A DNA stretch of 64,000 bases from Eledone cirrhosa (lineage: Eukaryota). The stretch is taken from NCBI GenBank assembly GCA_964016885.1, contig OZ024740.1:434620001-434684000 (forward strand), given 5' to 3'. The translations under genes were made by a program, and so were the position numbers. The notes under the pieces were generated by a model, which did no database searches, had not been told where the DNA came from, and saw only the letters and a program-made list of their open reading frames with translations. This document shows, piece after piece, positions 2,996 through 64,000 of this stretch. Numbering within the stretch: the stretch's first letter is position 1; each line of letters begins with the position of its first letter.

Positions 2996-5900
2996 ATCAT
3001 CATCATCACCATCATTGTTATTGTGTCGTCTCTTCCATACATGCATGGCTTCCACAGCATCTCCTGTCATCTTCAACTATTTAAGATCAGCTCTCACAAC
3101 CTCTACTGCAGCTCTCACAACCTCTACTGCAGCTCTCACAACCTCTACCCAGCTCTCACAACCTCTACTGCAGCTCTCACAACCTCTACTGCAGCTCTCA
3201 CAAACTCTACTGCAGCTCTCACAACCTCTACTGCAGCTCTCACAACCTCTACTGCAGCTCTCACAACCTCTACTGCAGCTCTCACAACCTCTACTGCAGC
3301 TCTCACAACCTCTACTGCAGCTCTCACAACCTCTACTGCAGCTCTCACAACCTCTACTGCAGCTCTCACAACCTCTACCCAGCTCTCACAACCTCTACTG
3401 CAGCTCTCACAACCTCTACTGCAGCTCTCACAAACTCTACTGCAGCTCTCACAACCTCTACTGCAGCTCTCACAACCTCTACTGCAGCTCTCACAACCTC
3501 TACCCAGCTCTCACAACCTCTACTGCAGCACTCACAACCTCTACTGCAGCTCTCACAACCTCTACTGCAGCTCTCACAACCTCTACTGCAGCTCTCACAA
3601 CCTCTACCCAGCTCTCACAACCTCTACTGCAGCTCTCACAACCTCTACTGCAGCTCTCACAACCTCTACTGCAGCTCTCACAACCTCTACCCAGCTCTCA
3701 CAACCTCTACTGCAGCACTCACAACCTCTACTGCAGCTCTCACAACCTCTACTGCAGCTCTCACAACCTCTATGCAGCTCTCACAACCTCTACTGCAGCT
3801 CTCACAACCTCTATCCAGCTCTCACAACCTCTACTGCAGCTCTCACAACCTCTACTGCAGCTCTCACAACCTCTACTGCAGCTCTCACAACCTCTACCCA
3901 GCTCTCACAACCTCTACCCAGCTCTCACAACCTCTACCCAGCTCTCACAACCTCTACTGCAGCTCTCACAACCTCTACTGCAGCTCTCACAACCTCTACT
4001 GCAGCTCTCACAACCTCTACTGCAGCTCTCACAACCTCTACTGCAGCTCTCACAACCTCTACCCAGCTCTCACAACCTCTACTGCAGCTCTCACAACATC
4101 TACCCAGCTCTCACAACCTCTACCCAGCTCTCACAACCTCTACCCAGCTCTCACAACCTCTACCCAGGTCTCACAACCTCTACCCAGCTCTCACAACCTC
4201 TACCCAGCTCTCACAACCTCTACCCAGCTCTCACAACCTCTACTGTAGCTCTCACAACCTCTACCCAGCTCTCACAACCTCTACTGCAGCTCTCACAACC
4301 TATACCCAGCTTTCACAACCTCTACTGCAGCTCTCACAACCTCTACCCAGCTCTCACAACCTCTACTCAGCTCTCACAACCTCTACCCAGCTCTCACAAC
4401 CTCTACCCAGCTCTCACAACCTCTACCCAGCTCTCAACCTCTACCCAGCTCTCACAACCTCTACTGCAGCTCTCACAACCTCTACCCAGCTCTCACAACC
4501 TCTACCCAGCTCTCACAACCTCTATCCAGCTCTCACAACCTCTACTGCAGCTCTCACAACCTCTACCCAGCTCTCACAACCTCTACCCAGGTCTCACAAC
4601 CTCTACCCAGCTCTCACAACCTCTACTGTAGCTCTCACAACCTCTACTGCAGCTCTCACAACCTCTACTGCAGCTCTCACAACCTCTACCCAACTCTCAC
4701 AACCTCTACCCAGCTCTCACAACCTCTACCCAACTCTCACAACCTCTACCCAGTTCTCACAACCTCTACTGCAGCTCTCACAACCTCTACTGCAGCTCTC
4801 ACAACCTCTATCCAGCTCTCACAATCTCTACCCAGCTCTCACAACCTCTACTGCAGCTCTCACAACCTCTACCCAGCTCTCACAACCTCTACTGCAGCTC
4901 TCACAACCTCTACCCAACTCTCACAACCTCTACCCAGCTCTCACAACCTCTACCCAGCTCTCACAACCTCTACCCAGCTCTCACAACCTCTACCCAGCTC
5001 TCACAACCTCTACCCAGCTCTCACAACCTCTACCCAGCTCTCACAACCTCTACCCAGCTCTCACAACCTCTACCCAGCTCTCACAACCTCTACCCAGCTC
5101 TCACAACCTCTACCCAGCTCTCACAACCTCTACTGCTGCTCTCACAACCTCTACCCAGCTCTCACAACCTCTACCCAGCTCTCACAACCTCTACCCAGTT
5201 CTCACAACCTCTACCCATCTCTCACAACCTCTACCCAGTTCTCACAACCTCTACCCATCTCTCACAACCTCTACCCAGCTCTCACAACCTCTACCCAGCT
5301 CTCACAACCTCTACCCAGCTCTCACAACCTCTACCCAGCTCCCACAACCTCTACTGCAGCTCTCACAACCTCTACCCAGCTCCCACAACCTCTACTGCAG
5401 CTCTCACAACCTCTACCCAGCTCTCACAACCTCTACCCAGCTCTCACAACCTCTACCCAGCTCTCACAACCTCTACCCAGCTCCTACAACTTCTACCCAG
5501 CTCTCACAACCTCTACTGCAGCTCTCACAACCTCTACCCAGCTCTCACTACCTCTACCCAGGTCTCACAACCTCTACCCAGCTCTCACAACCTCTAATAA
5601 GCTCTCACAACCTCTACCCAGCTCCTACAACCTCTACCCAGCTCTCACAACCTCTACTGCAGCTCTCACAACCTCTACCCAGCTCCCACAACCTCTACTG
5701 CAGCTCTCACAACCTCTACCCAGCTCTCACAACCTCTACCCAGCTCTCACGACCTCTACCCAGGCATCACAACCTCTATTGCAGCTCTTACAACCGCTAC
5801 TGCAGCTCTCACAACCTCTACTGCAGCTCTCACAACCTCTACCCAGCTCTCACAACCTCTACCCAGCTCTCACAACCTCTACTGCAGCTCTCACAACCTC

Positions 5901-6525
5901 TACCCACCTCTCACAACCTCTACTGCAGCTCTCACAACCTCTACTGCAGCTCTCACAACCTCTACTGCAGCTCTCACAACCTCTACTGCAGCTCTCACAA
6001 CCTCTACCCAGCTCTCACAACCTCTACCCAGCTCTCACAACCTCTACCCAGCTCTCACAACCTCTACTGCAGCTCTCACAACCTCTACCCAGCTCTCACA
6101 ACCTCTACCCAGCTCTCACAACCTCTACCCAGCTTTCACAACCTCTACCCAGCTCTCACAACCCTTACCCAGCTCTTCCTTGGTCTACCTCCACAGCTCT
6201 CACAACCTCTACTGCAGCTCTCACAACCTCTACTGCAGCTCTCACAACCTCTACCCAGCTCTCACAACCTCTACCCAGCTCTTCCTTGGTCTACCTCTAC
6301 CCAGCTCTCACAACCTCTACTGCAGCTCTCACAACCTCTACTGCAGCTCTCACAACCTCTACTGCAGCTCTCACAACCTCTACCCAGCTCTCACAACCTC
6401 TACCCAGCTCTCACAACCTCTACCCAGCTCTCACAACCTCTACCCAGCTCACCCAGCTCTTCCTTGGTCTACCTCTACTGCAGCTTCTTTCCACAGGGAT
6501 TTCTTAACACTTCTTCACCCAACAT
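2996..6525 (-). mobile_element. Decayed 5'-truncated RTE 3' end split by the 20/21-bp minisatellite
   Basis: The minus-strand flanks translate as WVKKC*EIPVERSCSRGRPRKSW (6520-6452) and VEVVRADLK*LKMTGDAVEAMHVWKR (3107-3033), homologous to CITKCRAIKIDGSHGVGRPRKTWDELINSDL of the intact RTE. A (GAT)n tail lies at ~2996-3017. Confidence 0.8.
3088..6487. repeat. Minisatellite, ~3.4 kb, mixed 21-bp (CAGCTCTCACAACCTCTACTG) and 20-bp (CAGCTCTCACAACCTCTACC) units
   Basis: Directly visible tandem array with two interspersed unit variants. Confidence 0.98.
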
Positions 6526-6732
6526 CATCATCATCATCACCGTTTTACATCTGTTCTTCCATGCTAGCATGGGTTAGACAGGTTGTCCTGTTGTGGGCAG
6601 TGTCCAGTTGGCTGACCTTGCCTTGCTCATACAGGAACTGATTCTGGCTTGATATCTACAGCTGGATGTCCTTCCTAACCCCAACCTCATTTACAGTGAG
6701 TGCTGGCTGCCTTCTTGCCATGGCACCTCCCC
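6523..6732 (-). mobile_element. SINE/RTE-type 3' tail fragment
   Basis: Reverse complement matches 12845-12990 and the RTE 3' UTR (ggttaggaaggacatccagctgtaga ... catggaa ... (GAT)n). Confidence 0.75.
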
Positions 6733-6867
6733 TCCCACTTTACAGTGGGAGGGGTGGGGCATATTGTCTATATGCTTCAGCTTCGGCTTGTACCCGTTGG
6801 GGGTCTTCTGTATTACAGTGTGACCCCTGTGTCATCGCCTTTCAGAGGTGCAACAATCAAATATATT

Positions 6868-7344: not shown

Positions 7345-7476
7345 TCATCTACTATACATTCAGTACCTATGCTGAAATCAAAAACTCTGACCAACAAAGC
7401 GATTTTGGCTTCAGTCCTGCTTTTGCTGGTAACTTTGAGTATTACCTTGGTTTAGAACAGACTTGGTTGATCAGTG
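7345..7476 (+). CDS. SLC44A: Choline transporter-like protein (CTL/SLC44A), internal exon A
   Basis: ttttacag|...|gtaagt; encodes IYYTFSTYAEIKNSDQQSDFGFSPAFAGNFEYYLGLEQTWLISG; phase is compatible with the next exon. Confidence 0.85.
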
Positions 7477-7501
7477 GTAAGTTTTCAGTTTTTAATTAAA
7501 A

Positions 7502-8185
7502 TTCTTCTTCTTTGCCCATTTATTCCTGAGAGTGTCGTGGGGGCAGAGTCCTCAAACACTCCTTCCAACAGATCCTGTCAGAAGCAACTGTCTCCAACTG
7601 ATCTGGTTAAATCCCCACCCCTGGGTTGCCTACCAGTTGGTTTTACCTGTAAAATCTGTCCAATTCTTTCCTGAGGCATTCTAACCACATGTCCATAGTA
7701 TCGGAGCTGTGATCTCTCAATTCAGAGAAGTAGCAACTCTACCTGGAGCGACTCTCTGATTTCTGAGTTACATACTTCATCAAGTAATGTTACTCCAAAG
7801 ACCCTTCAGAGGAATCCCATTTTGGCCGTTTGTAGTCGTGATGATATTCTTTCGGTCATTACCCAAGGTTTGCAACCATAGTTACGGGTTGGCACGAAAA
7901 CTGAATTGAAGATGGCGAGTTTGGCTTTTACACTTACCTCCCTTCTTCTGATTACTGAATACTGAATCTGGCACATTACTGCATCAGCTCCTGCAATTCT
8001 TATACTTAATTCAGCCTCCTGCCTTCCATCACTCGTGAACATGGCCCCCGAGATACTTGAACTCCTCCACCTGCTTCAGTAGAACTACATTCACATGTAG
8101 AGTGCACTGTGCAGACTTCCTTTAGAGAACGAGTGTCTCAGTTCTCACAGCACTGATATTCCAGCCATGCTGCACTCGGCGTTGT
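7502..8185 (-). mobile_element. Decayed RTE-clade LINE 3' fragment with (GAA)n tail
   Basis: Minus-strand ORF remnant FTSDGRQEAELSIRIAGA...KLAIFNSVFVPTRNYGCKPW (RTE thumb/C-terminus); 3' end is similar to 17945-18325. Confidence 0.85.
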
Positions 8186-8516
8186 AAGTTTAAATAAGTA
8201 TTACCTTCATTTAGAACAGACCTGCTTGGTCAATCGTGTTTAGATTTTAATAAAAGTTTTGTATGCTTTGGTTAAAAATGTGAATTATCATGTTTCAAGC
8301 TGGAGCCGTTCTGGGGCTGTTTTTCAGTGAAAATAGAGTGTTTTCCCCATAAATAGGTTCGAAGATGTGAGAGGGGAAAGGAAAAGGCAAAAAGAAAAAA
8401 AAAGAAAAAAACATATTTGTAGGAAGTCAGTAGTGGTCAAAGTTAAGATGGGAGAAATTATGACATTGGTAGAAGTGGGGAGGTGTTGAAAAGTTGTGTT
8501 AAATGAATGATATATG

Positions 8517-9050
8517 GGGAAGAGTGTGGCTTAGTGGTTAGGGTGTTCAGTTCACAATTGTAAAGTTGTGTATTCAATTTCTGGACTGGGTGTCACATTA
8601 TGTCCTTAAGCAAGACACTTTATTTCATGTTGCTCCAGTTGTGAAGGTGTATGGCTTAGTGGTTAGAGCATTGGACTTGCTATCGAAAGGTTGTGAGTTC
8701 AATTCTCAGACCAGGTGATGTTGTTTCCTTGAGCAAGACACTTTATTTCATGTTCCTCCATTTTACTCAGCTGTAGAAATGAGATGATAGGACTGGGGTC
8801 CCTATCATTAAATTACCCAAGACACCTCCAATGAGATATACCTTGGAGGAGGCCAGCTTTACCTGCAGAGGTGTGAGCTGTCACACACAGTTGACTCATC
8901 AGGCAAAATTAAATTGTTCCTGTAATTGTCCCAATGTGTCTTGCTGAATCTCCCTTAGAACTTGTTAAAGGGTGCACATGTTTGTGGAATGCTCAGCCAC
9001 TTACATGTTAATTTCATGAGCAGGCAGCTCTGTTGAATGAATCAACTGGA
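8517..9050 (+). mobile_element. Tandem tRNA-derived CORE-like SINE copies (family A)
   Basis: A-box tggcttagtggttag and B-box gagttcaattc, followed by ccttgagcaagacactttatttca...cagctgtagaaatgag, which resembles the MIR/CORE domain. Heads start at ~8517 and ~8641. Confidence 0.8.
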
Positions 9051-9552
9051 GTACAGGTGTTTGGAAATGTTGAAAGTTGAACATCACATGGGACAATACT
9101 CCATATCACAGTGATAGGTAAAACTTTCTAAATTTCTACAGATTGTGTAGGAAACAACTGAACTCGGGAATAAATTAAGATTTTCTATATAAAATTATAT
9201 TAACCCTTTCAATACCACATTTCAGATGAAATTTGAATTAGTTATTGAAGAATTTGGAGGAATTTACCAAAAATATTTATTATTTCATTACTAAGATGAT
9301 GTTCGTCCTACATAATTTTACTGTTAAGTTATGTTACAGTTTTAATTTATATAGAAACCCTTTAAAATGGGTTGTTTTATTTGTTGGAACCAGAGATGGT
9401 TTGGGTTGGTTTGGTATCAAAAGGATTAAACACATGGTTTAAATCTCTTCTGTGGCTTTGGTGCACTTTTCTGCCTCACATTGCTATTTATAAGGTCCCT
9501 AATATCTAACTTATGATCTACCACTTGTCTGATTTTAACATTTATAAACAAC

Positions 9553-9556
<4 letters not shown>

Positions 9557-9605
<49 letters not shown>
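9557..9605. repeat. (CT)n microsatellite
   Basis: About 24 CT units. Confidence 0.97.
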
Positions 9606-9608
<3 letters not shown>

Positions 9609-9699
9609 TATAGCTTTTAAAGGTCACAGCTGAAATTATTTCTTCACTTGATATCGGATATTAATGGATTTTTAAACTCTATTTCTTTTCTAACTTCAG

Positions 9700-9799
9700 G
9701 TATTATCTGTACAATTGTATTTGTGATATGTTTGATTTTGCTGATTTTTGTGGCTAAGAAACTCTGCCTTGCCATTGAACTCATTAAGGAAGCAAGTCG
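9700..9799 (+). CDS. SLC44A: CTL/SLC44A exon B
   Basis: cttcag|...|gtaaga; IICTIVFVICLILLIFVAKKLCLAIELIKEASR matches the SLC44 'RIxIAIxLIKEASKA' motif. Confidence 0.92.
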
Positions 9800-10671
9800 G
9801 TAAGAGACAAAGACATTTCTATCATTCATTAATAGGGATATCTCAAACTAGTTCTTACTCTTACTTGTTCCATAGGAAACATAAGTCAACCAATCATCTT
9901 CAATGCTGTCAGCCTGTGGCAGCTCGTTAACATCTGTGCCAGGTGATGTTGACAGTTTGTAGGTCACTTTGGAATGTCTGCCACCAAGTCAACTTTACTC
10001 AGCCTCATCTCAAACAAGACACCAATAATAATAACAACTACCATATTCTACATAGCCAAGATACATAACATTTAACTCTTAACATCATGGACCACATGAA
10101 ATCACAGCAGCAAATGCTGTTTTCTACTTTCAAGAAGTAAAAACAGTTTTATGACTGCATCACATTAAATAATTGAAGACTTTACTTCAATACTGCAAAT
10201 GTTCATATCAATCTATCCAGTAGTAAAAACACTATAAACATTTGCATTAACAAACCCATTTTTATATATTTTCTGCTGATGTTAAGAGTTAAAGAAAAAG
10301 AGTGGAATTTGTTAGAAAGATCCTTTCTCTGAGTTAACTTAAAACTGATCTGTTTCCTAAGTTATTAGTGACTTTACTAATGCACAGCTGTCATACCCTG
10401 GATGATCTAGATAAAAAAATACAGGGTTGACAGGGTGTCAGTGTGTCCACAAATGCATGTAACTGTGATACATTCTACTAAGTCATACTCAATTGCAACT
10501 AACGGCTGTAGTTTATGTTTCAATATATTAGGTGATCCTATTAGAAAGACTGAAAATGTTTTTTGTTTTTTTCTTTAGCTCAGTTTGTTGAAGATTATTT
10601 TTATTGACACTAGAATATTTTGGGACACCAAAGTTAATGATTTTAAAATACAACCATAAATTCTTTTGTAG

Positions 10672-10764
10672 GGCTTCAACCTCTGTGATGTTCACATTTA
10701 TCTGGCCGTTTGTACCGTTTTTATTGGAGTCTGGAATTCTCTTTTACTGGATTACCAGTGCAAT
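10672..10764 (+). CDS. SLC44A: CTL/SLC44A exon C (ends at U12-type donor)
   Basis: tttgtag|...AT|gtatccttct; encodes ASTSVMFTFIWPFVPFLLESGILFYWITSA(I). Confidence 0.9.
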
Positions 10765-10920
10765 GTATCCTTCTACCATCTCAGTTCCAGTTCTATAAAG
10801 ACTGACTTTTCTTCCATGTTATCAACCAACCCAAAACAGATTGTTTAAATATTAACACTACCAAAATTTGAAATTACACTTTCATTAACACCTTACATTT
10901 TACAGAAGCACTTGGCATAT

Positions 10921-11235
10921 TACCATCATTTTTACCCCCGTCTTGTCTATAAAACCCCATCACTTTTACCTCAGTCTTCTGTATAACAGCCCATCACTTT
11001 TACCTCAGTCTTCTGTATAACACCCCATCACTTTTACCCCAATCTTCTCTACAACACCCCATCACTGTTACCTCAGTCTTCTCTATAACACCCCATCACT
11101 TTTACTTCCATCTTCTGTATAACACCCCATCACTTTTACCTCAGTCTTTGGTATAACATCCTATCACTTTTACCCCTGTCTCTATAACACCCCATCACTT
11201 TTACCCCTGCCTTCTCTATAACACCCCATCATTTT
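10921..11235. repeat. Degenerate ~34-bp minisatellite (~9 copies)
   Basis: Unit ATAACACCCCATCACTTTTACCTCAGTCTTCTGT; copies start at 10983 and 11017. Confidence 0.9.
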
Positions 11236-11550
11236 GCTCACTATGATCCCTCTGGGACCACTGACCTAGGATGACCCCAGTCTCATCAAGCAAGAAGAAG
11301 ATTTTGAAATAGAAAATCTTTAACATGTTACTATAAAGACCATAAGTGTAATTTATATAATGGCTAAAATTAATATTTCTAATTCCGAATTATTTTTAGA
11401 GTTGGTGAATCAGAAAATATATTTGATTAATAAAAAATATATTTGATTAATAAAAAATAAATATATTCTATTTTGAAACATTTTATTAAACTTTATATTT
11501 TCACAAAGTTGGTAATAGAGGGAACAGGGGTGGGTGGGGTAGATAAGAGA

Positions 11551-11660
11551 TGGGGTTAGACTCCAGATAGAAGGGGCAGGGGGGTTAGACTCCAGATAGA
11601 TGGGGCAGGAGAGTTAGACTCCAGATAGAAGGGGTAGGGGGTTAGACTCCAGATAGAAGT
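11551..11660. repeat. G-rich ~29-bp tandem repeat (4 copies)
   Basis: Unit GGGGTTAGACTCCAGATAGAAGGGGCAGG. Confidence 0.85.
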
Positions 11661-12196
11661 GTAACCCATGTAAGCCTGGAAAATAGATGTTAAACAGTAA
11701 TGTTGTTGATGATGTACCAAATATCTAAATTTAGATAGAGGTTAGAAACTCTCAGGAGAGCTGGACAGTAGGTCTTTATAGAAGAAACCCCCTCAAGCGA
11801 GTGTTTTGGTCCTTAACTTGATAAAATGTGTTACTAAATTTAAATAAACCTCTTTAAGAAAGCTGCAAGATATCTCTTCCATATTATAACTGGTTTCTTA
11901 GTGTTTATTGCCATAGATGATTTGTCATAATTTTCTTAGAGGACTTTGATAATATTTTTATGACTCAAAGAGAGAAAATAGAGGAAGAAAGCACAACTGG
12001 TTAGACAGAAGATCAAATCTGATAACATGGAACAGGGTCAACATTGTTGAATGGTTACAAGGTTTATATGGTAGTGTTAAACTGACAGATTAACTGAACC
12101 ACATAATGTTTTGTGTTGTCATCATATTTGTAATGTTTAATTTTAGGTTTTGAAAATCCATCTCAGAATTGTATTACTTTCCTTAATGAGTACAAG

Positions 12197-12296
12197 ATAC
12201 CTCGCTACAATGGGCCAACCTGAGACCTATCGTAATATTGTCAATGTTAGCCATGGAATGAAGAATTTGTCTAGAGTTTACTGTAATAACCAGAAT
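12197..12296 (+). CDS. SLC44A: CTL/SLC44A exon D
   Basis: acaag|A TAC CTC...AAT|gtaagt; YLATMGQPETYRNIVNVSHGMKNLSRVYCNNQN matches the SLC44 'YLATSGxP' motif. Confidence 0.88.
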
Positions 12297-12657
12297 GTAA
12301 GTATTCATAATGTTTGGTTAAATTGCATCTAAAAGATCTTTTCATTGAATTCTGCCAGAAGTTGTAACTGGTAGATAATATCAGCAAAGGAAAGAACAAT
12401 GAAAACATTGTTTTGTTGGTCATATTTGACAAGTTCCACTCCATTTGGTAAGTGGTCTGGGATCTTGTCAACCAAACTTTGCTATTTCCTTGAAGACTTG
12501 CAGATTGTAAGACACATGAAGTGAATGATCAGCTTCAAAACATATATACCTGTATTTGTTATTGATTATATTATTGATTATAACATATAACCTTGTACAT
12601 GTCATTGATTACAACATATATACCTGTACATGTTATTGATTAAATTCTATATATAAT

Positions 12658-12990
12658 GGAGGCACATGGCTTAGTGGTTAGAGCATTGGCTTTGCAATCG
12701 AAAGGTTGTGAGTTCAATTCTCAGACCGGGTGATGTTATTTCCTTGAGCAAGACACTTTATTTCACATTGCTCCAGTTTACTCAGCTGTAGAAATGAGAT
12801 GATAGGGACTGGGGTCCCTATCATTCCACTGCAAACTGGTTGTGGAGGTGCCATGGCAAAAAGCACCCAGCACTCACTGTAAATGAGGTTGGTGTTAGGA
12901 AGAGCATCCAGCTGTAGAAATCAAGCCAGAATCAGTTCCCGTCGCACCCTTGCAAGCAGGGAAAAAGGGGATGTAAAATGAAATGAATGG
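12658..12990 (+). mobile_element. tRNA/CORE-like SINE (family A) with RTE-type 3' tail
   Basis: 12658-12825 is nearly identical to 8641-8810; it then continues into aagcacccagcactcactgtaaatgaggttggtgttaggaagagcatccagctgtagaaa, shared with the RTE 3' UTR. Confidence 0.85.
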
Positions 12991-13084
12991 ACTATAGAAC
13001 CTTTATGTATTGAGTACTTTAGTGTTTACACACATGAACTAATACAAAGATCAGTGGAATATATACCGTACTTAAAAATAATAA

Positions 13085-13195
13085 ACTATGTGTTAGTATT
13101 AGAAAGAGCATGTGGTTGTAGAATACTGCCTCAAAATGTTTCATACAGCCCATGCCAACATGGAAAAGCATATGTAAAAACGATGATGATGATGT
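13085..13195 (+). mobile_element. Degenerate SINE/RTE 3' tail fragment
   Basis: ttagaaagagcat..tgtagaa...cccatgccaacatggaaaag...gatgatgatgat. Confidence 0.6.
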
Positions 13196-13224
13196 ATTGT
13201 AGTATATATAATTTCTCCCGTGTA

Positions 13225-13300
13225 TAATAATAAAAATTGTGTACAGTGCTCAGGTGCACTACAACTAATCAAAAGTGTATGTATAGTACATAAGTATGTA
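13225..13300 (-). mobile_element. Short CR1-like 3' end fragment
   Basis: attgtgtacagtgctcaggtgcactacaact..tcaaaagtg.atgtatagtacata matches 63076-63132. Confidence 0.6.
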
Positions 13301-13814
13301 ACCACTTAACTATGAAGTAGAATATTTAACCTGCCTTGTGTGAGAGTTGTTACCATGTAAAACCTTGTAAGATTTTTACATTGAGTTGTTGCAGAGATGA
13401 ACATTGTCTTTCATTCTTTTGGGATTGGTAAAATAACTGTTTAATGTAGTAGACTTGTTAGACTATTGGACAAAATACCTTCAGCTATATGTTCCAGATC
13501 TTAGTTATATTGAGTTAAAATCCTGATGTAACTTACTTGAGCGGTAGACTTAATCCATCCTTTAGTTTAACACCCTCATTTCGCCCATTGGTGTCTTTAG
13601 CAAAGCCTGCTCTGTTGGAAGCATTTAGGCTAAACGGTTAAACGGTAGTAATAATATAATTTTCTGAGCTTAACATAAACAGTTTAACCTCACAACTTTT
13701 GTTCTTCCATACTTAGTTTAACCTCACACTGTTATTTCATACTTATAGTTTTTGTAAATCTTAAATAATTTTGTTTATATATTTTTTCTTTTGTATTTTT
13801 AAAAATTGTTTTAG

Positions 13815-13864
13815 GGTGAATTTATCGAAGATATGTGTGACTTTGTTCACTATGGTGATAGTAA
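13815..13864 (+). CDS. SLC44A: CTL/SLC44A exon E (50 bp)
   Basis: ttttag|GGT...AGT AA|gtaagt; GEFIEDMCDFVHYGDSK (CxFxxYG loop). Its phase 0 start and phase 2 end bridge exons D and F. Confidence 0.8.
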
Positions 13865-15762: not shown

Positions 15763-16747
15763 ATATTTGTTAAAATAACAGATTAAGTTTAAGCAAAGAA
15801 TCGCTGCTTTCACCCTTAACAGGATCTTCTGAAACTAAAAAAATCAATCTGTAACGCAGAAGTAAATATTTCGGAAAACGTTGCAACCGAAGGAAGACAG
15901 GAAGACGATACTTTGGTTCGTGGAAACGTTCCCTGGCAAAGAACGGAAAAAACGAAGATAATACGTCATTAATAGGAGCGGTGAAAAACAAATAAATACA
16001 TGCAAAGACAAAACCACGTTTATGGTAAATGAAGTCGTAGACTAATATTCTTTTAGGTGGTTCGTGGAGACGTTCTCTGACAATGAACGGAAAAAACGGA
16101 GAAGATAATACATCATTATGTGGAGCGGTGAGAACAATTACGCGCAAAGACAAAACCACGTTTATTGTATAACAGAAGTTGTAGACTAAAATTCTATTTA
16201 GGAAACCGAATGATTCCTGGCTTCAGAGTTAAGAATAAATAAATTACAGAGGTAATTGAAATTAAATATATACATGCACGCATCCATATACGTACATACA
16301 CATGCATATTCGAAAACACCTGCCATGGGTATGCAAATACAAGCAGGTACCAAAAAAATCACGCACGCACATACAGAACCCACGCAACGCCTGTACATTA
16401 TCTTCTTTGTTTTTTCCGTTCATTGCCAGAGAACGTCTCCACGAACCACCTAAAAGAATATTAGTCTACGACTTCATTTACCATAAACGTGGTTTTGTTT
16501 TTGCGTGTATTTATTTGTTTTTCACCGCTCCTATTAATGACGTATTATCTTCGTTTTTTTCCGTTCTTTGCCAGGGAACGTTTCCATGAACCAGAGTATC
16601 GTCTTCCTGTCTTCCTTCGGTTGCAACGTTTTTCGAAATATTTACTTCTGCGTTCACAGATTGATTTTTTTTAGTTTCAGAAGATCCCGTTAAGGGTGAA
16701 AGCAGCGATTCTTTGCTTAAACTTTAATCTGTTATTTTAATAAATAT
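15763..16747. mobile_element. Non-autonomous foldback/long-TIR DNA element (~350-bp inverted arms, internal ~145-bp tandem subrepeat)
   Basis: 15763-16110 is the near-identical reverse complement of 16396-16747; TTAA at 15770-15773 and 16737-16740; no transposase. Confidence 0.85.
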
Positions 16748-16854
16748 ATATGAGAAGACTTAAATCTAATTATCCCATCAATCTACCATAATTTTGTGAA
16801 AATGTTTCAAGCAATTGTTATTTATTGATAATGGTGATATTCCTATATTTTCAG

Positions 16855-17600: not shown

Positions 17601-17626
17601 TTATTGGTGTTATTTTTATTATTTAG

Positions 17627-52700: not shown

Positions 52701-55700
52701 CAGTCCACTCTGTAAGGTGGTAGTGCTGGTGACATAACAGACACCCAGTCCACTCTGTAAGGTGGTAGTGCTGGTGACATAACTGACACCCAGTCCACTC
52801 TGTAAGGTGGTAGTGGTTGTGACATAAGACACCCAGTCCACTCTGTAAGGTGGTTGTGGTGGTGACATAACAAAGACACCCAGTCCACTCTGTAAGGTGG
52901 TAGTGGTGGTGACATAAGACACCCAGTCCACTCTGTAAGGTGGTAGTGCTGGTGACATAAGACACCCAGTCCACTCTGTAAGGTGGTAGTGCTGGTGACA
53001 TAACAGACACCCAGTCCACTCTGTAAGGTGGTAGTGGTGGTGACATAACAGACACCCAGTCCACTCTGTAAGGTGGTAGTGCTGGTGACATAACAGACAC
53101 CCAGTCCACTCTGTAAGGTGGTTGTGGTGGTGACATAACAAAGACACCCAGTGCACTCTGTAAGGGGGTTGTGGTGGTGACATAACAAAGACACCCAGTC
53201 CACTCTGTAAGGTGGTAGTGACATAACAGACACCCAGTCCACTCTGTAAGGTGGTTGTGGTGGTGACATAACAGACACCCAGTCCACTCTGTAAGGTGGT
53301 TGTGGTGGTGACATAACAAAGACACCCAGTCCACTCTGTAAGGTGGTTGTGGTGGTGACATAACAAAGACACCCAGTCCACTCTGTAAGGTAGTAGTGAC
53401 ATAAGACACCCAGTCCACTCTGTAAGGTAGTAGTGACATAAGACACCCAGTCCACTCTGTAAGGTAGTAGTGACATAACAGACACCCAGTCCACTCTGTA
53501 AGGTGGTTGTGGTGGTGACATAACAGACACCCAGTCCACTCTGTAAGGTAGTAGTGACATAACAGACACCCAGTCCACTCTGTAAGGTGGTTGTGGTGGT
53601 GACATAACTGACACCCAGTCCACTCTGTAAGGTAGTAGTGACATAACAGACACCCAGTCCACTCTGTAAGGTAGTAGTGACATAACAGACACCCAGTCCA
53701 CTCTGTAAGGTGGTAGTGCTGGTGACATAACAGACACCCAGTCCACTCTGTAAGGTGGTTGTGGTGGTGACATAACAGACACCCAGTCCACTCTGTAAGG
53801 TAGTAGTGACATAACAGACACCCAGTCCACTCTGTAAGGTAGTAGTGACATAACAGAGACCCAGTCCACTCTGTAAGGTAGTAGTGACATAACAGACACC
53901 CAGTCCACTCTGTAAGGTAGTAGTGCTGGTGACATAACAGACACCCAGTCCACTCTGTAAGGTGGTAGTGCTGGTGACATAACAGACACCCAGTCCACTC
54001 TGTAAGGTAGTAGTGCTGGTGACATAACTGACACCCAGTCCACTCTGTAAGGTAGTAGTGCTGGTGACATAACAGACACCCAGTCCACTCTGTAAGGTGG
54101 TAGTGCTGGTGACATAATAGACACCCAGTCCACTCTGTAAGGTGGTAGTGCTGGTGACATAACAGACACCCAGTCCACTCTGTAAGGTGGTTGTGGTGGT
54201 GACATAACAGACACCCAGTCCACTCTGTAAGGTAGTAGTGACATAACAGACACCCAGTCCACTCTGTAAGGTAGTAGTGACATAACAGACACCCAGTCCA
54301 CTCTGTAAGGTGGTAGTGGTGGTGACATAAGACACCCAGTCCACTCTGTAAGGTGGTAGTGGTGGTGACATAACAAAGACACCCAGTTAACTCTGTAAGG
54401 TGGTAGTGGTGGTGACATCACAGACACCCAGTCCACTCTGTAAGGTGGTAGTGCTGGTGACATAACAGACACCCGGTCCACTCTGTAAGGTGGTAGTGCT
54501 GGTGACATAACAGACACCCAGTCCACTCTGTAAGGTCGTAGTGCTGGTGACATAACAGACACCCAGTCCACTCTGTAAGGTGGTAGTGCTGGTGACATAA
54601 TAGACACCCAGTCCACTCTGTAAGGTGGTAGTGGTGGTGACATAACAGACACCCAGTCCACTCTGTAAGGTGGTAGTGGTGGTGACATAACAAAGACACC
54701 CAGTCCACTCTGTAAGGTGGTAGTGCTGGTGACATAACAGACACCCAGTCCACTCTGTAAGGTTTGTAGTGCTGGTGACATAACAGACACCCAGTCCACT
54801 CTGTAAGGTGGTAGTGGTGGTGACATAACAGACACCCAGTCCACTCTGTAAGGTGGTAGTGCTGGTGACATAACAAAGACACCCAGTCCACTCTGTAAGA
54901 TGGTAGTGCTGGTGACATAACAGAGACCCAGTCCACTCTGTAAGGTGGTAGTGCTGGTGACATAACAGACACCCAGTCCACTCTGTAAGGTGGTAGTGCT
55001 GGTGACATAACAGACACCCAGTCCACTCTGTAAGGTGGTAGTGGTGGTGACATAACAGACACCCAGTGCACTCTGTAAGGTGGTAGTGCTGGTGACATAA
55101 CAGACACACAGTCCACTCTGTAAGGTGGCAGTGGTGGTGACATAACAGACACCCAGTGCACTCTGTAAGGTGGTAGTGCTGGTGACATAACTGACACCCA
55201 GTCCACTCTGTAAGGTGGTAGTGCTGGTGACATAACAGACACCCAGTCCACTCTGTAAGGTGGTAGTGGTGGTGACATAAGACACCCAGTCCACTCTGTA
55301 AGGTGGTTGTGGTGGTGACATAACAGACACCCATTCCACTCTGTAAGGTGGTAGTGCTGGTGACATAACAGACACCCGGTCCACTCTGTAAGGTGGTAGT
55401 GGTGGTGACATAACAGACACCCAGTCCACTCTGTAAGGTGGTAGTGCTGGTGACATAACAAAGACACCCAGTCCACTCTGTAAGGTGGTAGTGCTGGTGA
55501 CATAACAGACACCCAGTCCACTCTGTAAGGTGGTAGTGCTGGTGACATAACAAAGACACCCAGTCCACTCTGTAAGGTGGTAGTGGTGGTGACATAACAG
55601 ACACCAGTCCACTCTGTAAGGTTGTACTGCCGGTGACATAACAGACACCCAGTCCACTCTGTAAGGTGGTAGTGCTGGTGACATAACAAAGACACCCAGT

Positions 55701-56551
55701 CTACTCTGTAAGGTGGTAGTGCTGGTGACATAAGACACCCAGTCCACTCTGTAAGGTGGTAGTGCTGGTGACATAACAGACACCCAGTCCACTCTGTAAG
55801 GTGGTAGTGCTGGTGACATAACAAAGACACCCAGTCTACTGTGTAAGGTGGTAATGCTGGTGACATAACAAAGACACACAGTCTACTATGTAAGGTGGTA
55901 GTGCTGGTGACATAAGACACCCAGTCCACTCTGTAAGGTGGTAGTGCTGGTGACATAACAAAGACACCCAGTCCACTCTGTAAGGTGGTAGTGCTGGTGA
56001 CATAACAGACACCCAGTCCACTCTGTAAGGTGGTAGTGCTGGTGACATAACAAAGACACCCAGTCCACTCTGTAAGGTGGTAGTGCTGGTGACATAACAG
56101 ACACCCAGTCCACTCTGTAAGGTGGTAGTGCTGGTGACATAACAAAGACACCCAGTCCACTCTGTAAGGTGGTAGTGCTGGTGACATAACAAAGACACCC
56201 AGTCCACTCTGTAAGGTGGTAGTGCTGGTGACATAACTGACACCCAGTCCACTCTGTAAGGTGGTAGTGCTGGTGACATAACAGACACCCAGTCCACTCT
56301 GTAAGGTGGTAGTGCTGGTGACATAACAAAGACACCCAGTCCACTCTGTAAGGTGGTAGTGCTGGTGACATAACAAAGACACCCAGTCCACTCTGTAAGG
56401 TGGTAGTGCTGGTGACATAACTGACACCCAGTCCACTCTGTAAGGTGGTAGTGCTGGTGACATAACTGACACCCAGTCCACTCTGTAAGGTGGTAGTGCT
56501 GGTGACATAAGACACCCAGTCCACTCTGTAAGGTGGTAGTGCTGGTGACAT
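19725..56551. repeat. Giant modular satellite, ~36.8 kb, 37-47-bp units: GACACCCAGTCCACTCTGTAAGG + variable (TGG/TAG)n module + GACATAA + 0-4-nt linker
   Basis: Continuous head-to-tail array with a 23-bp near-invariant core; kb-scale higher-order duplications are marked by rare variants. Confidence 0.99.
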
Positions 56552-56715
56552 GATGACAATCACCCAGCCATAGAAAACCAAGTGAAAAGTTGAGTGTATA
56601 AGAGATCAACTGACCTATCTGACGCCATGACTTGACAGCACTCAATATTTCATTCGAGTGTGGAATATTGAGAGGATATCTTTGAGTGGGTTTAATCCTG
56701 CTCCAATATCTTTTG

Positions 56716-59700
56716 GATGTATTACACTGCTCCATGGTGACTGAAATACTAATAGCTACATAGATAATGTGTTACAGTGCTCCATGGTGTCTGAAATACT
56801 AACAGCTACATAGATGATGTATTACACTGCTCCATGGTGACTGAAATACTAATAGCTACATAGATAATGTGTTACAGTGCTCCATGGTGACTGAAATACT
56901 AACAGCTACATAGATAATGTGTTACAGTGCTCCATGGTGACTGAAATACTAATAGCTACATAGATGATGTATTACAGTGCTCCATGGTGACTGAAATACT
57001 AATAGCTACATAGATGATGTATTACACTGCTCCATGGTGACTGAAATACTAACAGCTACATAGATGATGTATTACAGTGCTCCATGGTGACTGAAATACT
57101 AATAGCTACATAGATGATGTATTACACTGCTCCATGGTGACTGAAATACTAACAGCTACATAGATGATGTATTACAGTGCTCCATGGTGACTGAAATACT
57201 AATAGCTACATAGATGATGTATTACACTGCTCCATGGTGACTGAAATACTAACAGCTACATAGATGATGTATTACAGTGCTCCATGGTGTCTGAAATACT
57301 AATAGCTACATAGATGATGTATTACAGTGCTCCATGGTGACTGAAATACTAATAGCTACATAGATGATGTATTACAGTGCTCCATGGTGACTGAAATACT
57401 AATAGCTACATAGATAATGTATTACAGTGCTCCATGGTGGCTGAAATACTAACAGCTACATAGATGATGTATTACAGTGCTCCATGGTGGCTGAAATACT
57501 AATAGCTACATAGATGATGTATTACACTGCTCCATGGTGACTGAAATACTAACAGCTACATAGATGATGTATTACAGTGCTCCATGGTGACTGAAATACT
57601 AACAGCTACATAGATGATGTATTACATTGCTCCATGGTGACTGAAATACTAACAGCTACATAGATGATGTATTACAGTGCTCCATGGTGTCTGAAATACT
57701 AATAGCTACATAGATGATGTATTACAGTGCTCCATGGTGACTGAAATACTAATAGCTACATAGATGATGTATTACAGTGCTCCATGGTGACTGAAATACT
57801 AATAGCTACATAGATGATGTATTACAGTGCTCCATGGTGCCTGAAATACTAATAGCTACATAGATGATGTATTACAGTGCTCCATGGTGCCTGAAATACT
57901 AATAGCTACATAGATGATGTATTACAGTGCTCCATGGTGCCTGAAATACTAATAGCTACATAGATGATGTATTACAGTGCTCCATGGTGCCTGAAATACT
58001 AATAGCTACATAGATGATGTATTACAGTGCTCCATGGTGACTGAAATACTAACAGCTACATAGATGATGTGTTACAGTGCTCCATGGTGACTGAAATACT
58101 AACAGCTACATAGATGATGTATTACAGTGCTCCATGGTGCCTGAAATACTAACAGCTACATAGATGATGTGTTACAGTGCTCCATGGTGACTGAAATACT
58201 AACAGCTACATAGATGATGTATTACAGTGCTCCATGGTGCCTGAAATACTAACAGCTACATAGATGATGTGTTACAGTGCTCCATGGTGACTGAAATACT
58301 AACAGCTACATAGATGATGTATTACAGTGCTCCATGGTGCCTGAAATACTAATAGCTACATAGATAATGTATTACAGTGCTCCATGGTGGCTGAAATACT
58401 AATAGCTACATAGATGATGTATTACAGTGCTCCATGGTGACTGAAATACTAACAGCTACATAGATGATGTATTACAGTGCTCCATGGTGACTGAAATACT
58501 AACAGCTACACAGATGATGTATTACAGTGCTCCATGGTGACTGAAATACTAACAGCTACATAGATGATGTATTACAGTGCTCCATGGTGTCTGAAATACT
58601 AATAGCTACATAGATGATGTATTACAGTGCTCCATGGTGACTGAAATACTAATAGCTACATAGATGATGTATTACAGTGCTCCATGGTGACTGAAATACT
58701 AATAGCTACATAGATAATGTGTTACACTGCTCCATGGTGACTGAAATACTAACAGCTACACAGATGATGTATTACAGTGCTCCATGGTGACTGAAATACT
58801 AATAGCTACATAGATGATGTATTACAGTGCTCCATGGTGTCTGAAATACTAATAGCTACATAGATGATGTATTACAGTGCTCCATGGTGACTGAAATACT
58901 AATAGCTACATAGATGATGTATTACAGTGCTCCATGGTGACTGAAATACTAATAGCTACATAGATGATGTATTACAGTGCTCCATGGTGACTGAAATACT
59001 AACAGCTACATAGATGATGTATTACAGTGCTCCATGGTGACTGAAATACTAATAGCTACATAGATGATGTATTACAGTGCTCCATGGTGACTGAAATACT
59101 AATAGCTACATAGATGATGTATTACAGTGCTCCATGGTGACTGAAATACTAACAGCTACATAGATAATGTATTACAGTGCTCCATGGTGACTGAAATACT
59201 AATAGCTACATAGATGATGTATTACAGTGCTCCATGGTGACTGAAATACTAATAGCTACATAGATGATGTATTACAGTGCTCCATGGTGCCTGAAATACT
59301 AATAGCTACATAGATGATGTATTACAGTGCTCCATGGTGCCTGAAATACTAATAGCTACATAGATGATGTATTACAGTGCTCCATGGTGACTGAAATACT
59401 AATAGCTACATAGATGATGTATTACAGTGCTCCATGGTGCCTGAAATACTAATAGCTACATAGATGATGTATTACAGTGCTCCATGGTGCCTGAAATACT
59501 AATAGCTACATAGATGATGTATTACAGTGCTCCATGGTGACTGAAATACTAATAGCTACATAGATGATGTATTACAGTGCTCCATGGTGCCTGAAATACT
59601 AATAGCTACATAGATGATGTATTACAGTGCTCCATGGTGCCTGAAATACTAATAGCTACATAGATGATGTATTACAGTGCTCCATGGTGACTGAAATACT

Positions 59701-61166
59701 AATAGCTACATAGATGATGTATTACAGTGCTCCATGGTGCCTGAAATACTAATAGCTACATAGAAGATGTATTACAGTGCTCCATGGTGCCTGAAATACT
59801 AATAGCTACATAGATGATGTATTACAGTGCTCCATGGTGACTGAAATACTAATAGCTACATAGATGATGTATTACAGTGCTCCATGGTGCCTGAAATACT
59901 AATAGCTACATAGATGATGTATTACAGTGCTCCATGGTGCCTGAAATACTAATAGCTACATAGATGATGTATTACAGTGCTCCATGGTGACTGAAATACT
60001 AACAGCTACATAGATGATGTGTTACAGTGCTCCATGGTGACTGAAATACTAACAGCTACATAGATGATGTATTACAGTGCTCCATGGTGCCTGAAATACT
60101 AACAGCTACATAGATGATGTGTTACAGTGCTCCATGGTGACTGAAATACTAACAGCTACATAGATGATGTATTACAGTGCTCCATGGTGCCTGAAATACT
60201 AATAGCTACATAGATAATGTATTACAGTGCTCCATGGTGACTGAAATACTAACAGCTACACAGATGATGTATTACAGTGCTCCATGGTGCCTGAAATACT
60301 AACAGCTACATAGATGATGTATTACAGTGCTCCATGGTGACTGAAATACTAATAGCTACATAGATGATGTATTACAGTGCTCCATGGTGACTGAAATACT
60401 AATAGCTACATAGATGATGTATTACAGTGCTCCATGGTGTCTGAAATACTAATAGCTACATAGATAATGTATTACAGTGCTCCATGGTGACTGAAATACT
60501 AATAGCTACATAGATAATGTATTACAGTGCTCCATGGTGACTGAAATACTAACAGCTACATAGATAATGTATTACAGTGCTCCATGGTGGCTGAAATACT
60601 AATAGCTACATAGATAATTTATTACAGTGCTCCATGGTGGCTGAAATACTAATAGCTACATAGATGATGTATTACAGTGCTCCATGGTGGCTGAAATACT
60701 AACAGCTACATAGATGATGTATTACAGTGCTCCATGGTGACTGAAATACTAATAGCTACATAGATGATGTGTTACAGTGCTCCATGGTGGCTGAAATACT
60801 AATAGCTACATAGATGATGTATTACAGTGCTCCATGGTGGCTGAAATACTAACAGCTACATAGATGATGTATTACAGTGCTCCATGGTGACTGAAATACT
60901 AACAGCTACATAGATGATGTATTACATTGCTCCATGGTGGCTGAAATACTAACAGCTACATAGATGATGTATTACAGTGCTCCATGGTGGCTGAAATACT
61001 AACAGCTACATAGATGATGTATTACAGTGCTCCATGGTGGCTGAAATACTAACAGCTACATAGATAATGTATTACAGTGCTCCATGGTGGCTGAAATACT
61101 AATAGCTACATAGATAATGTATTACAGTGCTCCATGGTGGCTGAAATACTAATAGCTACATAGATG
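56716..61166. repeat. 50-bp satellite, ~4.4 kb (~89 copies)
   Basis: Unit GTATTACAGTGCTCCATGGTGACTGAAATACTAATAGCTACATAGATGAT with strict 50-bp period and substitutions only. Confidence 0.99.
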
Positions 61167-61284
61167 GGGTTCAATTCTGCTACTAACACCTGCTTTCTTT
61201 GATATCACTCCTCTGCTCTTTGTAGTCTGAATTTAAATAGTTAGTGTGGGATAATCTGTTGGTATTGCAATGTGGGATAACCCA

Positions 61285-61405
61285 ACAAAATGCACTCGGC
61301 CCACCCTGAAAGGTGGTTAGTGTTATGGAGGGCATCCAGCTGTAGAAACCATGCCATATATGGGATGTATGAGCAGGTTGAAAACATGTAAAACCAATAA
61401 TGATG
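61285..61405 (+). mobile_element. Degenerate SINE/RTE 3' tail fragment
   Basis: caaaatgcactcggcccaccctgaaaggtggttagtgttatggagggcatccagctgtagaaacc. Confidence 0.65.
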
Positions 61406-61655
61406 CTAGCTGTAGCATTACATGAGACCCCTTGCAAGCCATTATAACAAAATTGTGATTGTAGCTATAAGCAGTGTTTAATATATTTTAAACTGGAGAC
61501 TTTGTGGCTGAGGAAGTTAACTAGGTGTAGGACATACATTATTAGCTTCACAGCAGATAGTGGTAATTGTATAAGAGATGTAAAGGATGCAGTTATTTAT
61601 CAGAGAAAAACCTCTCAATATGTATTTTAAAATGATTTCTATCTTTGTATTATAG

Positions 61656-61726
61656 TGCTGTTATAATGGATAAAGTAACTGACCTGATACTGTTGTTGAG
61701 CAAACTTATGATAACTGCAGTAGTTG
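61656..61726 (+). CDS. SLC44A: CTL/SLC44A exon J (after 42.4-kb intron)
   Basis: tatag|T GCT...GTT G|gtaagt; (N)AVIMDKVTDLILLLSKLMITAVV(G) matches the hallmark 'DKVTDLLLFxGKL'; phase matches exon I. Confidence 0.93.
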
Positions 61727-62125: not shown

Positions 62126-62689
62126 TTAGAGGGCTGAGAGTGTTTGGTATATTCCAGATACTAGAGGACTGAGAGTGTCTGGTATATTCCAGATACTAGA
62201 GGACTGAGAGTGTTTGGTATATTCCAGATACTAGAGGACTGAGAGTGTTTGGTATATTCCAGATACTAGAGGACTGAGAGTGTCTGGTATATTCCAGATA
62301 CTAGAGGACTGAGAGTGTCTGGTATATTCCAGATACTAGAGGACTGAGAGTGTCTGGTATATTCCAGATACTAGAGGACTGAGAGTGTTTGGTATATTCC
62401 AGATACTAGAGGACTGAGAGTGTCTGGTATATTCCAGATACTAGAGGACTGAGAGTGTTTGGTATATTCCAGATACTAGAGGACTGAGAGTGTCTGGTAT
62501 ATTCCAGATACTAGAGGACTGAGAGTGTCTGGTATATTCCAGATACTAGAGGGCTGAGAGTGTCTGGTATATTCCAGATACTAGAGGGCTGAGAGTGTCT
62601 GGTATATTCCAGATACTAGAGGACTGAGAGTGTCTGGTATATTCCAGATACCAGAGGACTGAGTATCTGGTATAATCCAGATACCAGAT
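62126..62689. repeat. 35-bp minisatellite (~16 copies)
   Basis: Unit ACTAGAGGACTGAGAGTGTCTGGTATATTCCAGAT with an internal TCTGG...CCAGA mini-hairpin. Confidence 0.97.
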
Positions 62690-63057
62690 GCTATTGGTCT
62701 TTGCTTGACTCAGGTCTGTGGTCCTGGCAATACTAGACAACACCTGCTCACTGCCCAGAAATGTCTGCAGCTGCCACAGCATATTGAGCTGTCTATGCAG
62801 AATGACCACCTGACCAGTGGTGCATGTCTCTTCTTCAAGAAACAAAAGAGCAGGCACTCTAACCTGGTTAAGATCAAAATTGGAGCAAGCCACAATAATA
62901 TATAATAGATGTGATGTTTACATTCATCACCTCTCACCTTTCAGGGCTAGCTTCCTGCCAGTTCAATTCTGGGAGAGACCGAGAAACTAACCACTCTGGT
63001 TGTAATCTTATCCCAGTTTTTATTAAGAATGATTCTTTTATATGTTTTTTTTATCTT

Positions 63058-63392
63058 AAAATAATAATGAAAATTATTGTGTACAATGTTCAGGTGTACT
63101 ACAACTCATCAAAGGTGCATGTATAGTACATAGAATAAGGTACAAAAGTCAGGAAAGTGAACAGTGTAAGAGTCATGATATACATGCATACATGTTTATG
63201 GAGAGGAACATCAGGTATAGTGCTGGCGAATTTTGGGAGGTTTTGAAGGATACAGTGTCCTGACAGCTAACAACTGATGCAGGTAGTTTGTTTCATGCTT
63301 CAGCAACTCTGAGCATGAAAAAATGTTTCTGAAAGTCATGGGAGCTGTGCTGTTTTCTGACTTTGTAGGCATGTCTACGGTATGTTAGACAT
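63058..63392 (-). mobile_element. Decayed CR1-clade LINE 3' end
   Basis: Minus strand reads HAYKVRKQHSSHDFQKHFFMLRVAEA*NKLPASVVSCQDTVSFKT, the CR1 ORF2 C-terminal motif (TRGH..K....FF..RV...WN.LP..VV......FK). Confidence 0.8.
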
Positions 63393-64000
63393 ATGGTGTC
63401 ATGTCCACAGTATGTTAGACATGGTGTCATGTCTATGGTATGTTAGACATGGTGTCATGTCCACAGTATGTTAGACATGGTGTCATGTCTATGGTATGTT
63501 AGACATGGTGTCATGTCTATGGTATGTTAGACATGGTGTCATGTCCACAGTATGTTAGACATGGTGTCATGTCTATGGTATGTTAGACATGGTGTCATGT
63601 CTATGGTATGTTAGACATGGTGTCATGTCCACAGTATGTTAGACATGGTGTCATGTCTACGGTATGTTAGACATGGTGTCATGTCTACGGTATGTTAGAC
63701 ATGGTGTCATGTCTATGGTATGTTAGACATGGTGTCATGTCTATGGTATGTTAGACATGGTGTCATGTCTATGGTATGTTAGACATGGTGTCATGTCTAT
63801 GGTATGTTAGACATGGTGTCATGTCCACAGTATGTTAGACATGGTGTCATGTCTATGGTATGTTAGACATGGTGTCATGTCCACAGTATGTTAGACATGG
63901 TGTCATGTCTATGGTATGTTAGACATGGTGTCATGTCTATGGTATGTTAGACATGGTGTCATGTCCACAGTATGTTAGACATGGTGTCATGTCCACAGTA
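63369..64000. repeat. 28-bp minisatellite running off the window end
   Basis: Unit CATGTC(TATG/CACA)GTATGTTAGACATGGTGT with a CATGTCTA...TAGACATG palindrome. Confidence 0.97.

What the first reader, a model, noticed from the sequence alone, without database searches (positions are those of the whole stretch)
2996..64000. Retroelement 3' ends repeatedly seed tandem arrays: three independent cases in one gene
Seen: three unrelated arrays each sit in or match the 3'-terminal region of a non-LTR element. The 20/21-mer (3088-6487) lies inside an RTE C-terminus, the 28-mer (63369-end) starts at the CR1 'TRGH' motif, and the 45-mer (19725-56551) matches the RTE/SINE 3' tail. Established: TE-derived satellites are known case by case. 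Inference: this genome has a systematic LINE/SINE-to-satellite route that inflates introns, either by replication slippage and unequal exchange at microhomologies or by RT template slippage during target-primed reverse transcription. Whether the RT participates cannot be determined from this sequence.
Basis: partly seen in the sequence, partly recalled or inferred. Interest (0 to 1): 0.8.

Follow-up and report, generated by a model that had tools for sequence, protein, structure and literature searches.

The report
Retroelement-seeded minisatellites with one hotspot
The three tandem arrays do start from old retrotransposon fragments, but such fragments seed arrays no more often than their abundance predicts in a 0.05% genome sample, apart from one already-doubled 48-base retrotransposon tail piece that likely expands after insertion.

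Summary
The 20/21-mer lies inside an RTE-type LINE C-terminal fragment, the 28-mer starts at the 5'-truncation point of a CR1-type copy, and the 45-mer is a ~48-bp module of an RTE/SINE 3' tail.

The general claim does not hold. In 137 random 10-kb stretches, array edges lay in high-copy repeats 20/102 times, against 170/756 (genome-wide) and 223/696 (local) control sites. SINE or LINE 3' seeds other than the module were 7/58 against 42/378. About 30% of the window's non-tandem DNA is SINE/LINE 3' end, so 3 of 8 arrays is expected (P=0.44).

One hotspot is real: the 48-bp module seeded 5/58 arrays against 6/378 controls (P=0.009). It is already a tandem dimer in 34 of 59 young copies. Copies with 3 or more modules are all old (0/59 young, 11/55 old), and the 37-kb array grew by kb-scale block duplications. 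Expansion is therefore likely a host DNA process after insertion, not RT slippage.

This is a new instance of TE-derived minisatellites, a known kind.

The parts
1..2430 (+). Young RTE-type LINE, 5' part cut by the window edge: 639-aa open frame (RVT_1, PHD-like), 3' UTR and (GAT)n tail. Clade name rests on recalled features.
   Evidence: 39 other copies of 1880-2430 at 99% identity among 40 candidates scored
2063..2320 (+). Internal tandem duplications in that LINE's 3' UTR (49 bp x2, 112 bp x2) made of the same ~48-bp module as the 45-mer; part of the mobile element itself
3010..6531 (-). 5'-truncated RTE-type C-terminal fragment that holds the 20/21-mer array
   Evidence: (collinear with L127)
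3088..6450 (-). 20/21-mer minisatellite, 164 copies; this unit found only here; bounded by a 7-bp direct repeat at 20-bp spacing in this copy
7345..61726 (+). Host gene, choline transporter-like (SLC44/CTL); candidate exons from 7345 to 61656-61726, two of them confirmed by Pfam PF04515
17150..17352 (+). 21-mer array, probably seeded in a truncated tRNA-type SINE body (weak match)
   Evidence: E 3e-4
19226..61655 (+). 42,430-bp intron; 41,278 bp (97%) is two tandem arrays
19725..56551 (+). 45-mer array from the RTE/SINE tail module: 846 units of 104 types, 37-47 bp as a rule, with block duplications of up to 91 units (~4 kb) 10 kb apart; remnant tail follows to about 56671
56716..61166 (+). 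50-mer array, 89 copies, no seed found in any repeat
62127..62688 (-). 35-mer array at the edge of an L1/Tx1-like ORF interior fragment (62694-63023)
63128..63370 (-). CR1-type 3' end fragment, 5'-truncated at the array seed
63370..64000 (-). 28-mer array; continues 910 bp beyond the window, then unique DNA

Best explanation
The arrays are minisatellites that likely grew in place, long after insertion, from whatever DNA lay in an array-prone chromosome region, and retroelement 3' ends supply seeds about in proportion to their abundance, except for one pre-doubled 48-bp RTE/SINE tail module. Steps. (1) Shown: SINE and LINE 3' fragments make up about 30% of the window's non-tandem DNA, and the window lies 8 Mb from a chromosome-scale contig end, where arrays are dense. 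(2) Inferred: a first local duplication arises by replication slippage or repair in any sequence. (3) Shown: for the tail module that step is often already done, since many young element copies carry two modules. (4) Inferred from block structure and age: unequal exchange or gene conversion then expands the array over time, up to 37 kb here. The RT likely acts only as disperser of the seed.
For: No overall TE excess at array edges (20/102 vs 170/756 and 223/696). SINE/3' seeds without the module 7/58 vs 42/378. 3 of 8 in the window has P=0.44. Module 5/58 vs 6/378 and 5/348 (P 0.009, 0.007); age-matched 5/52 vs 2/291 and 3/268; on unmasked DNA 5 seen vs 0.57 expected, or 1.3 at the array-rich rate (P 3e-4, 0.01). 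Of 121 module sites, 61 have one copy, 48 two, 6 three and 6 four or more. Three or more copies: 0/59 young vs 11/55 old (P 2e-4); four or more: 0/59 vs 6/55 (P 0.011). In 29 long module arrays 92% of variant occurrences are shared between units. The 45-mer has block repeats scoring 55 vs at most 6 in 20 shuffles. Complex minisatellites cover 0.5% of 72 interior stretches of the four large contigs, 46% of 9 stretches within 30 Mb of their ends, and 7-8% on smaller contigs.
Against: The sample is 1.37 of 2,996 Mb and gives 58 usable arrays, so a 1.5- to 2-fold excess is not excluded. The 45-family library sees only high-copy repeats; array edges are harder to align than control sites (the BLAST version, missed the window's own 45-mer); 44 of 58 arrays have no assigned seed and some may be decayed TEs. 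Counting abutting repeats, 6 of 8 window arrays touch SINE/3' ends (P=0.011, though abutting is a larger target). No excess microhomology at the unit period in family homologues (19 of 20 arrays testable; mean 3.4 vs 3.6 nt, P=0.52), so the start of non-module arrays is unexplained. Three-copy sites may be inherited from older masters.
Confidence: 0.72

Rival explanations
1. Retroelement 3' ends in general are privileged seeds.
For: All 12 retroelement-seeded arrays in the random sample are in SINEs or LINE 3' ends, none in LINE interiors (0/58 vs 30/378, P=0.02). The RTE C-terminal segment of the 20/21-mer also seeded arrays elsewhere with periods 28, 51, 51 and mixed (4 of 6 places fetched confirmed, one similar by eye, one unrelated).
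Against: The interior deficit is no longer significant once young copies are dropped (0/52 vs 11/291, P=0.38). Without the module there is no excess. About 190 arrays on that C-terminal segment are expected by chance from its ~59,000 estimated copies. SINE 5' heads and L1/Tx1-like interiors seed arrays too.
Confidence: 0.13
2. RT template slippage during insertion makes the arrays.
For: The 28-mer begins at the 5'-truncation point of its CR1-type copy. The young RTE-type element carries 49x2 and 112x2 duplications in its 3' UTR, which could have arisen during reverse transcription.
Against: No young copy is expanded (0/59). Expanded copies are not more often at a 5' junction than old unexpanded ones (5' flank continues into repeat 18/39 vs 19/48, P=0.66). 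Shared variants and kb-scale block duplications in a 37-kb array need rounds of DNA-level copying.
Confidence: 0.07
3. An old RTE/SINE subfamily carried a long internal VNTR, as SVA does, and the module arrays were mostly inserted already long.
For: Nine of the 29 long arrays examined share one identical unit consensus, and expanded copies are confined to old tails.
Against: Those loci were picked for likeness to one query. Copy number ranges from 8 to 36 among arrays with the same upstream type, several upstream types occur, 44 of 55 old copies have only 1-2 modules, and variants are shared within loci.
Confidence: 0.08

Closest known systems
TE-derived minisatellites of the human genome (Ahmed and Liang 2012, PMC3389668; parts 1-3 of 4 read, no supplements)
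   Same: About a quarter of arrays trace to TEs (23% there; 14 of 58 here). Arrays grow locally with time and older elements have more units. Hotspots arise where the element already holds a tandem repeat (LTR12, L1PA). Flanking direct repeats explain few cases.
   Different: Different elements (RTE-type and CR1-type LINEs, tRNA SINEs), far longer arrays (up to ~850 units), and about 6% of sampled DNA is complex minisatellite. They report more arrays in younger elements; here expanded module copies are confined to old ones.
Alu-, B1- and MaLR-derived minisatellites and the Haber-Louis short-repeat model (seen as passages in reviews PMC6947457 and PMC9659126; primary papers not read)
   Same: A SINE or LINE segment becomes the unit; later growth by slippage, conversion or unequal crossing-over; accumulation near chromosome ends.
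   Different: Excess short direct repeats were not detected at family level here; the one hotspot rests on a whole pre-duplicated unit.
SVA-type internal VNTR (described in PMC3389668; details recalled)
   Same: A tandem module dispersed by retrotransposition that varies in copy number between loci.
   Different: Young copies here carry only 1-2 modules; long arrays appear only in old copies.
RTE-generated microsatellite families in moths (PMC2887409; abstract only)
   Same: RTE 3' ends spread repeat seeds.
   Different: There the repeats are terminal simple repeats; here a 48-bp module inside the 3' UTR.

Membership tests
TE-derived minisatellite | Unit aligns to an interspersed repeat beyond chance | tested here: met
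   (best E 2e-15, 1e-31 and 9e-13 for the three arrays); 0 reversed-decoy hits at 12 bits
TE-derived minisatellite | Single- or low-copy state exists in other copies of the element | tested here: met
   L127 for the 20/21-mer; CR1-type copies L002-L030 for the 28-mer; 109 of 121 module sites have 1-2 copies
TE-derived minisatellite | Local expansion (units more alike within the array than elsewhere) | tested here: met
   20/21-mer 90-100% within, 87% or less elsewhere; 45-mer best match elsewhere 89%; block duplications
Haber-Louis microhomology origin | 5-10 bp direct repeats bounding the seed before expansion | tested here: inconclusive
   A 7-bp repeat bounds the 20-mer in this copy, but may postdate the array; no excess in family homologues of 19 arrays, a weak test
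SVA-like mobile VNTR element | Young insertions carry long, variable arrays | tested here: not met
   0 of 59 young copies have 3 or more modules
TPRT slippage product | Expansion present at insertion, independent of age, tied to the 5' junction | tested here: not met
TPRT slippage product | Target-site duplications around the whole array | not tested
   old copies; not examined
RTE and CR1 clades | Placement in an RT phylogeny | not tested
   RVT_1 shown; clade names rest on recalled C-terminal motifs and tail type
Systematic 3'-end-to-satellite route | Seeds enriched in LINE/SINE 3' ends beyond abundance | tested here: not met
   met only for one module

The most novel reading that the evidence does not exclude
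An RTE 3' UTR module, duplicated within the mobile lineages (possibly by RT slippage) and shared with SINE tails, works as a retrotransposon-delivered minisatellite primer. It has founded some 2,400-29,000 separate arrays in this genome, up to 37 kb long, and is a lineage-wide driver of intron growth in octopus-like cephalopods.
Probability: 0.35. Interest if true: 0.5.

Novelty: new member of a known kind. Interest (0 to 1): 0.3.

Why it matters
It tempers the idea of a special LINE/SINE-to-satellite route: in a genome with roughly 100,000-180,000 complex minisatellites (extrapolated), every abundant TE segment will seed arrays repeatedly. The hotspot module is useful as a natural replicate set: thousands of loci starting from the same 1-2 copy seed, datable by their tails, in which to measure how region and age govern minisatellite birth and growth. 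My searches listed no paper on TE-derived minisatellites in octopus; subscription journals are mostly not covered.

Tried and rejected
BLAST edge test: arrays looked depleted of repeats (23/141 vs 495/1344), but it missed the window's own 45-mer, so it is too insensitive and was replaced by profiles. Flank-only test: no enrichment (10/33 vs 75/190 local), but its filter wrongly dropped long units; the filter was changed.

A link between arrays and 5' junctions, suggested by the 28-mer and, was rejected. Family-level microhomology: no excess. Hairpin in the module or the 45-mer: z from -1.8 to +1.8 in five folds, nothing notable.

Orthologous single-copy state: a related organism's contigs (run X1) cover the exon before the 45-mer and some intron pieces but not the array junctions, so this stays open. 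Run X2 confirms the 45-mer's left junction and the 34- and 29-mers, but may be the assembly's own sample.

Protein-level comparison of the RTE fragment failed on stop codons; DNA alignments were used instead. Earlier-findings look-ups returned nothing. Three of 140 random stretches asked for did not exist (short contig). Five of 63 random arrays had no usable flank and are left out of the 58.
Full report
Setting. The window is G000:C1:434620001-434684000, 8 Mb from the end of a 443-Mb contig in a 3.0-Gb genome. The repeat types point to an octopus-like cephalopod (inference; RTE LINEs are reported in octopus in PMC9115989, passages read, and RTE-derived tails of cephalopod SINEs in PMC5786205, two passages read). 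The host gene is choline transporter-like (PF04515 on two exons; candidate exons 7345-61726).

Observation. TRF confirms the three arrays and five more with 3 or more copies. The 20/21-mer interrupts an RTE-type C-terminal fragment: its two edges align end to end with one uninterrupted copy in L127 (E 2e-15 and 8e-7). The 28-mer's element-side edge is 96-97% identical to CR1-type copies; the array runs 910 bp past the window and is followed by unique DNA, so the copy is 5'-truncated at the seed. The 45-mer matches a ~48-bp module found in 98-99 other loci held. It lies in a 42,430-bp intron that is 97% tandem array. Of the other five arrays, the 50-mer has no match elsewhere, the 35-mer sits at an L1/Tx1-like ORF interior, the 21-mer weakly matches a SINE body, and the 29- and 34-mers only abut repeat tails.

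Is three in one window more than chance? SINE and LINE 3' ends make up 4,969 of 16,768 non-tandem bases (30%). Three of eight has P=0.44 and four of eight P=0.19; six of eight, counting abutters, P=0.011 with a larger target.

Genome sample. I took 137 random 10-kb stretches (140 asked). TRF covers 26% of them. A strict filter keeps 63 complex minisatellites, 6.4% of bases. They are unevenly placed: 0.5% of bases in 72 interior stretches of the four large contigs, 46% in 9 stretches near their ends, 7-8% on smaller contigs. I built profiles for 45 high-copy repeat families from the sample and scored array edges against control sites of the same geometry; reversed decoys gave no hit at the threshold used. 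Array edges spanned a repeat 20/102 times, against 170/756 genome-wide (P=0.61) and 223/696 in the same stretches. By class, for the 58 arrays with a usable flank: SINE or LINE 3' end other than the module 7/58 vs 42/378 and 90/348; LINE interior 0/58 vs 30/378 (P=0.02); module 5/58 vs 6/378 and 5/348 (P 0.009, 0.007). After dropping young sites the interior deficit is not significant (0/52 vs 11/291), the non-module 3' class stays flat (6/52 vs 27/291), and the module stays enriched (5/52 vs 2/291 and 3/268). With the module included, the 3' class exceeds the genome-wide but not the local control (11/52 vs 29/291, P=0.03; 58/268, P=1). Limits: small sample, high-copy families only, array edges harder to align than controls, and 44 of 58 arrays unassigned.

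The hotspot. The module sits in the 3' tail shared by several RTE-type subfamilies and SINEs. The young LINE at 1-2430 carries it duplicated, and 39 other copies share that structure at 99% identity (40 of 1,454 candidates scored, chosen by similarity). Among 121 module sites in the sample, 61 have one copy, 48 two, 6 three and 6 four or more. Because TRF masks some dimers in the controls, I also counted on unmasked DNA: 5 arrays seen, 0.57 expected, 1.3 at the array-rich rate. Genome searches found related arrays at about 30 places for the 45-mer (best 89%, 39 of 592 candidates scored) and dozens more for a 48-mer (40 of 4,930 scored). The 29 non-overlapping loci examined hold 8-59 copies. 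Extrapolation gives 2,400-29,000 such arrays. The 20/21-mer's parent segment also seeded arrays elsewhere (4 of 6 places fetched, of 10 listed), but about 190 are expected by chance, so this shows no hotspot.

Mechanism. Expansion tracks age: 0 of 59 young and 11 of 55 old module sites have 3 or more copies (P=2e-4), and 1 of 27 selected long arrays has a tail 95% or more identical to another copy (a biased set). Expanded sites are not more often at a 5' junction (18/39 vs 19/48). Units within a locus share most variants (92% of 2,473 occurrences; some may stem from the original dimer). The 45-mer has 104 unit types and repeated blocks up to 91 units long. These shown results point to DNA-level growth after insertion (inferred: slippage, then unequal exchange or conversion, favoured near chromosome ends). 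The RT likely only spreads the seed; whether it made the dimers in the master elements is open. Pre-existing microhomology was not in excess in 19 testable arrays, and the module forms no notable hairpin. The orthologous state in a relative could not be read.

Comparison. Ahmed and Liang (PMC3389668, parts 1-3 of 4 read; supplements not opened) report 23% of human minisatellites as TE-derived, local growth with age, hotspots where the element already holds a tandem repeat, and only 6% explained by flanking repeats or partial units. Reviews PMC9659126 and PMC6947457 (passages read) list Alu, B1, LINE-1 and CR1 cases and subtelomeric accumulation. The present case fits this kind: 14 of 58 arrays TE-seeded, one pre-duplicated hotspot. 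It is not an SVA-like mobile VNTR, since young copies carry 1-2 modules. Searches listed no paper on this in octopus.

Verdict. Observation confirmed. The systematic 3'-end route is not supported beyond one module, and RT-driven expansion is disfavoured. New member of a known kind; interest 0.3.

Noticed in passing
random sample L050-L186: Complex minisatellites are strongly regional: 0.5% of bases in the interiors of the four large contigs, 46% within 30 Mb of their ends (9 stretches), 7-8% on smaller contigs; most units are locus-specific.
   Followed up: partly
window 1-2430: Young RTE-type LINE with an intact 639-aa frame to the window edge, a PHD-like finger after the RT, and at least 39 near-identical tails elsewhere; likely recently active.
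   Followed up: partly
L163:6311-9778: Intact 1,156-aa endonuclease-RT-zf-RVT frame of an L1/Tx1-like element; a decayed relative lies at window 62694-63023.
   Followed up: partly
L081:5575-6343 and L185:4093-5027; L148:1384-1618 and L168:1828-2005; L097 and L156; L070 and L137: Near-identical units at unlinked loci (48-, 37-, 310- and ~470-mers): multi-locus arrays, probably carried inside other mobile elements.
   Followed up: no
window 15651-16747: A ~290-bp segment holding a 144-bp dimer recurs in inverted orientation (about 15700-16200 against 16400-16747), with matches to one repeat family at both outer ends.
   Followed up: no
L275, L276, L277: Three unlinked arrays from the RTE C-terminal segment share a very similar 51-bp junction and lack the element's 3' tail; independent origin or one dispersed array was not resolved.
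   Followed up: partly
L031-L033 (just beyond the window): Two more long arrays follow within 30 kb: a ~39-47-mer with a variable CT tract and a 19/20-mer over 12 kb.
   Followed up: no
L133:8207-9852, L159:5202-6545: 84- and 168-bp period arrays that look like C2H2 zinc-finger coding repeats (by eye).
   Followed up: no
run X1 laid on window 19725-19790: The related organism's contigs also hold tandem copies of the tail module, so the dimer is likely older than this species.
   Followed up: no
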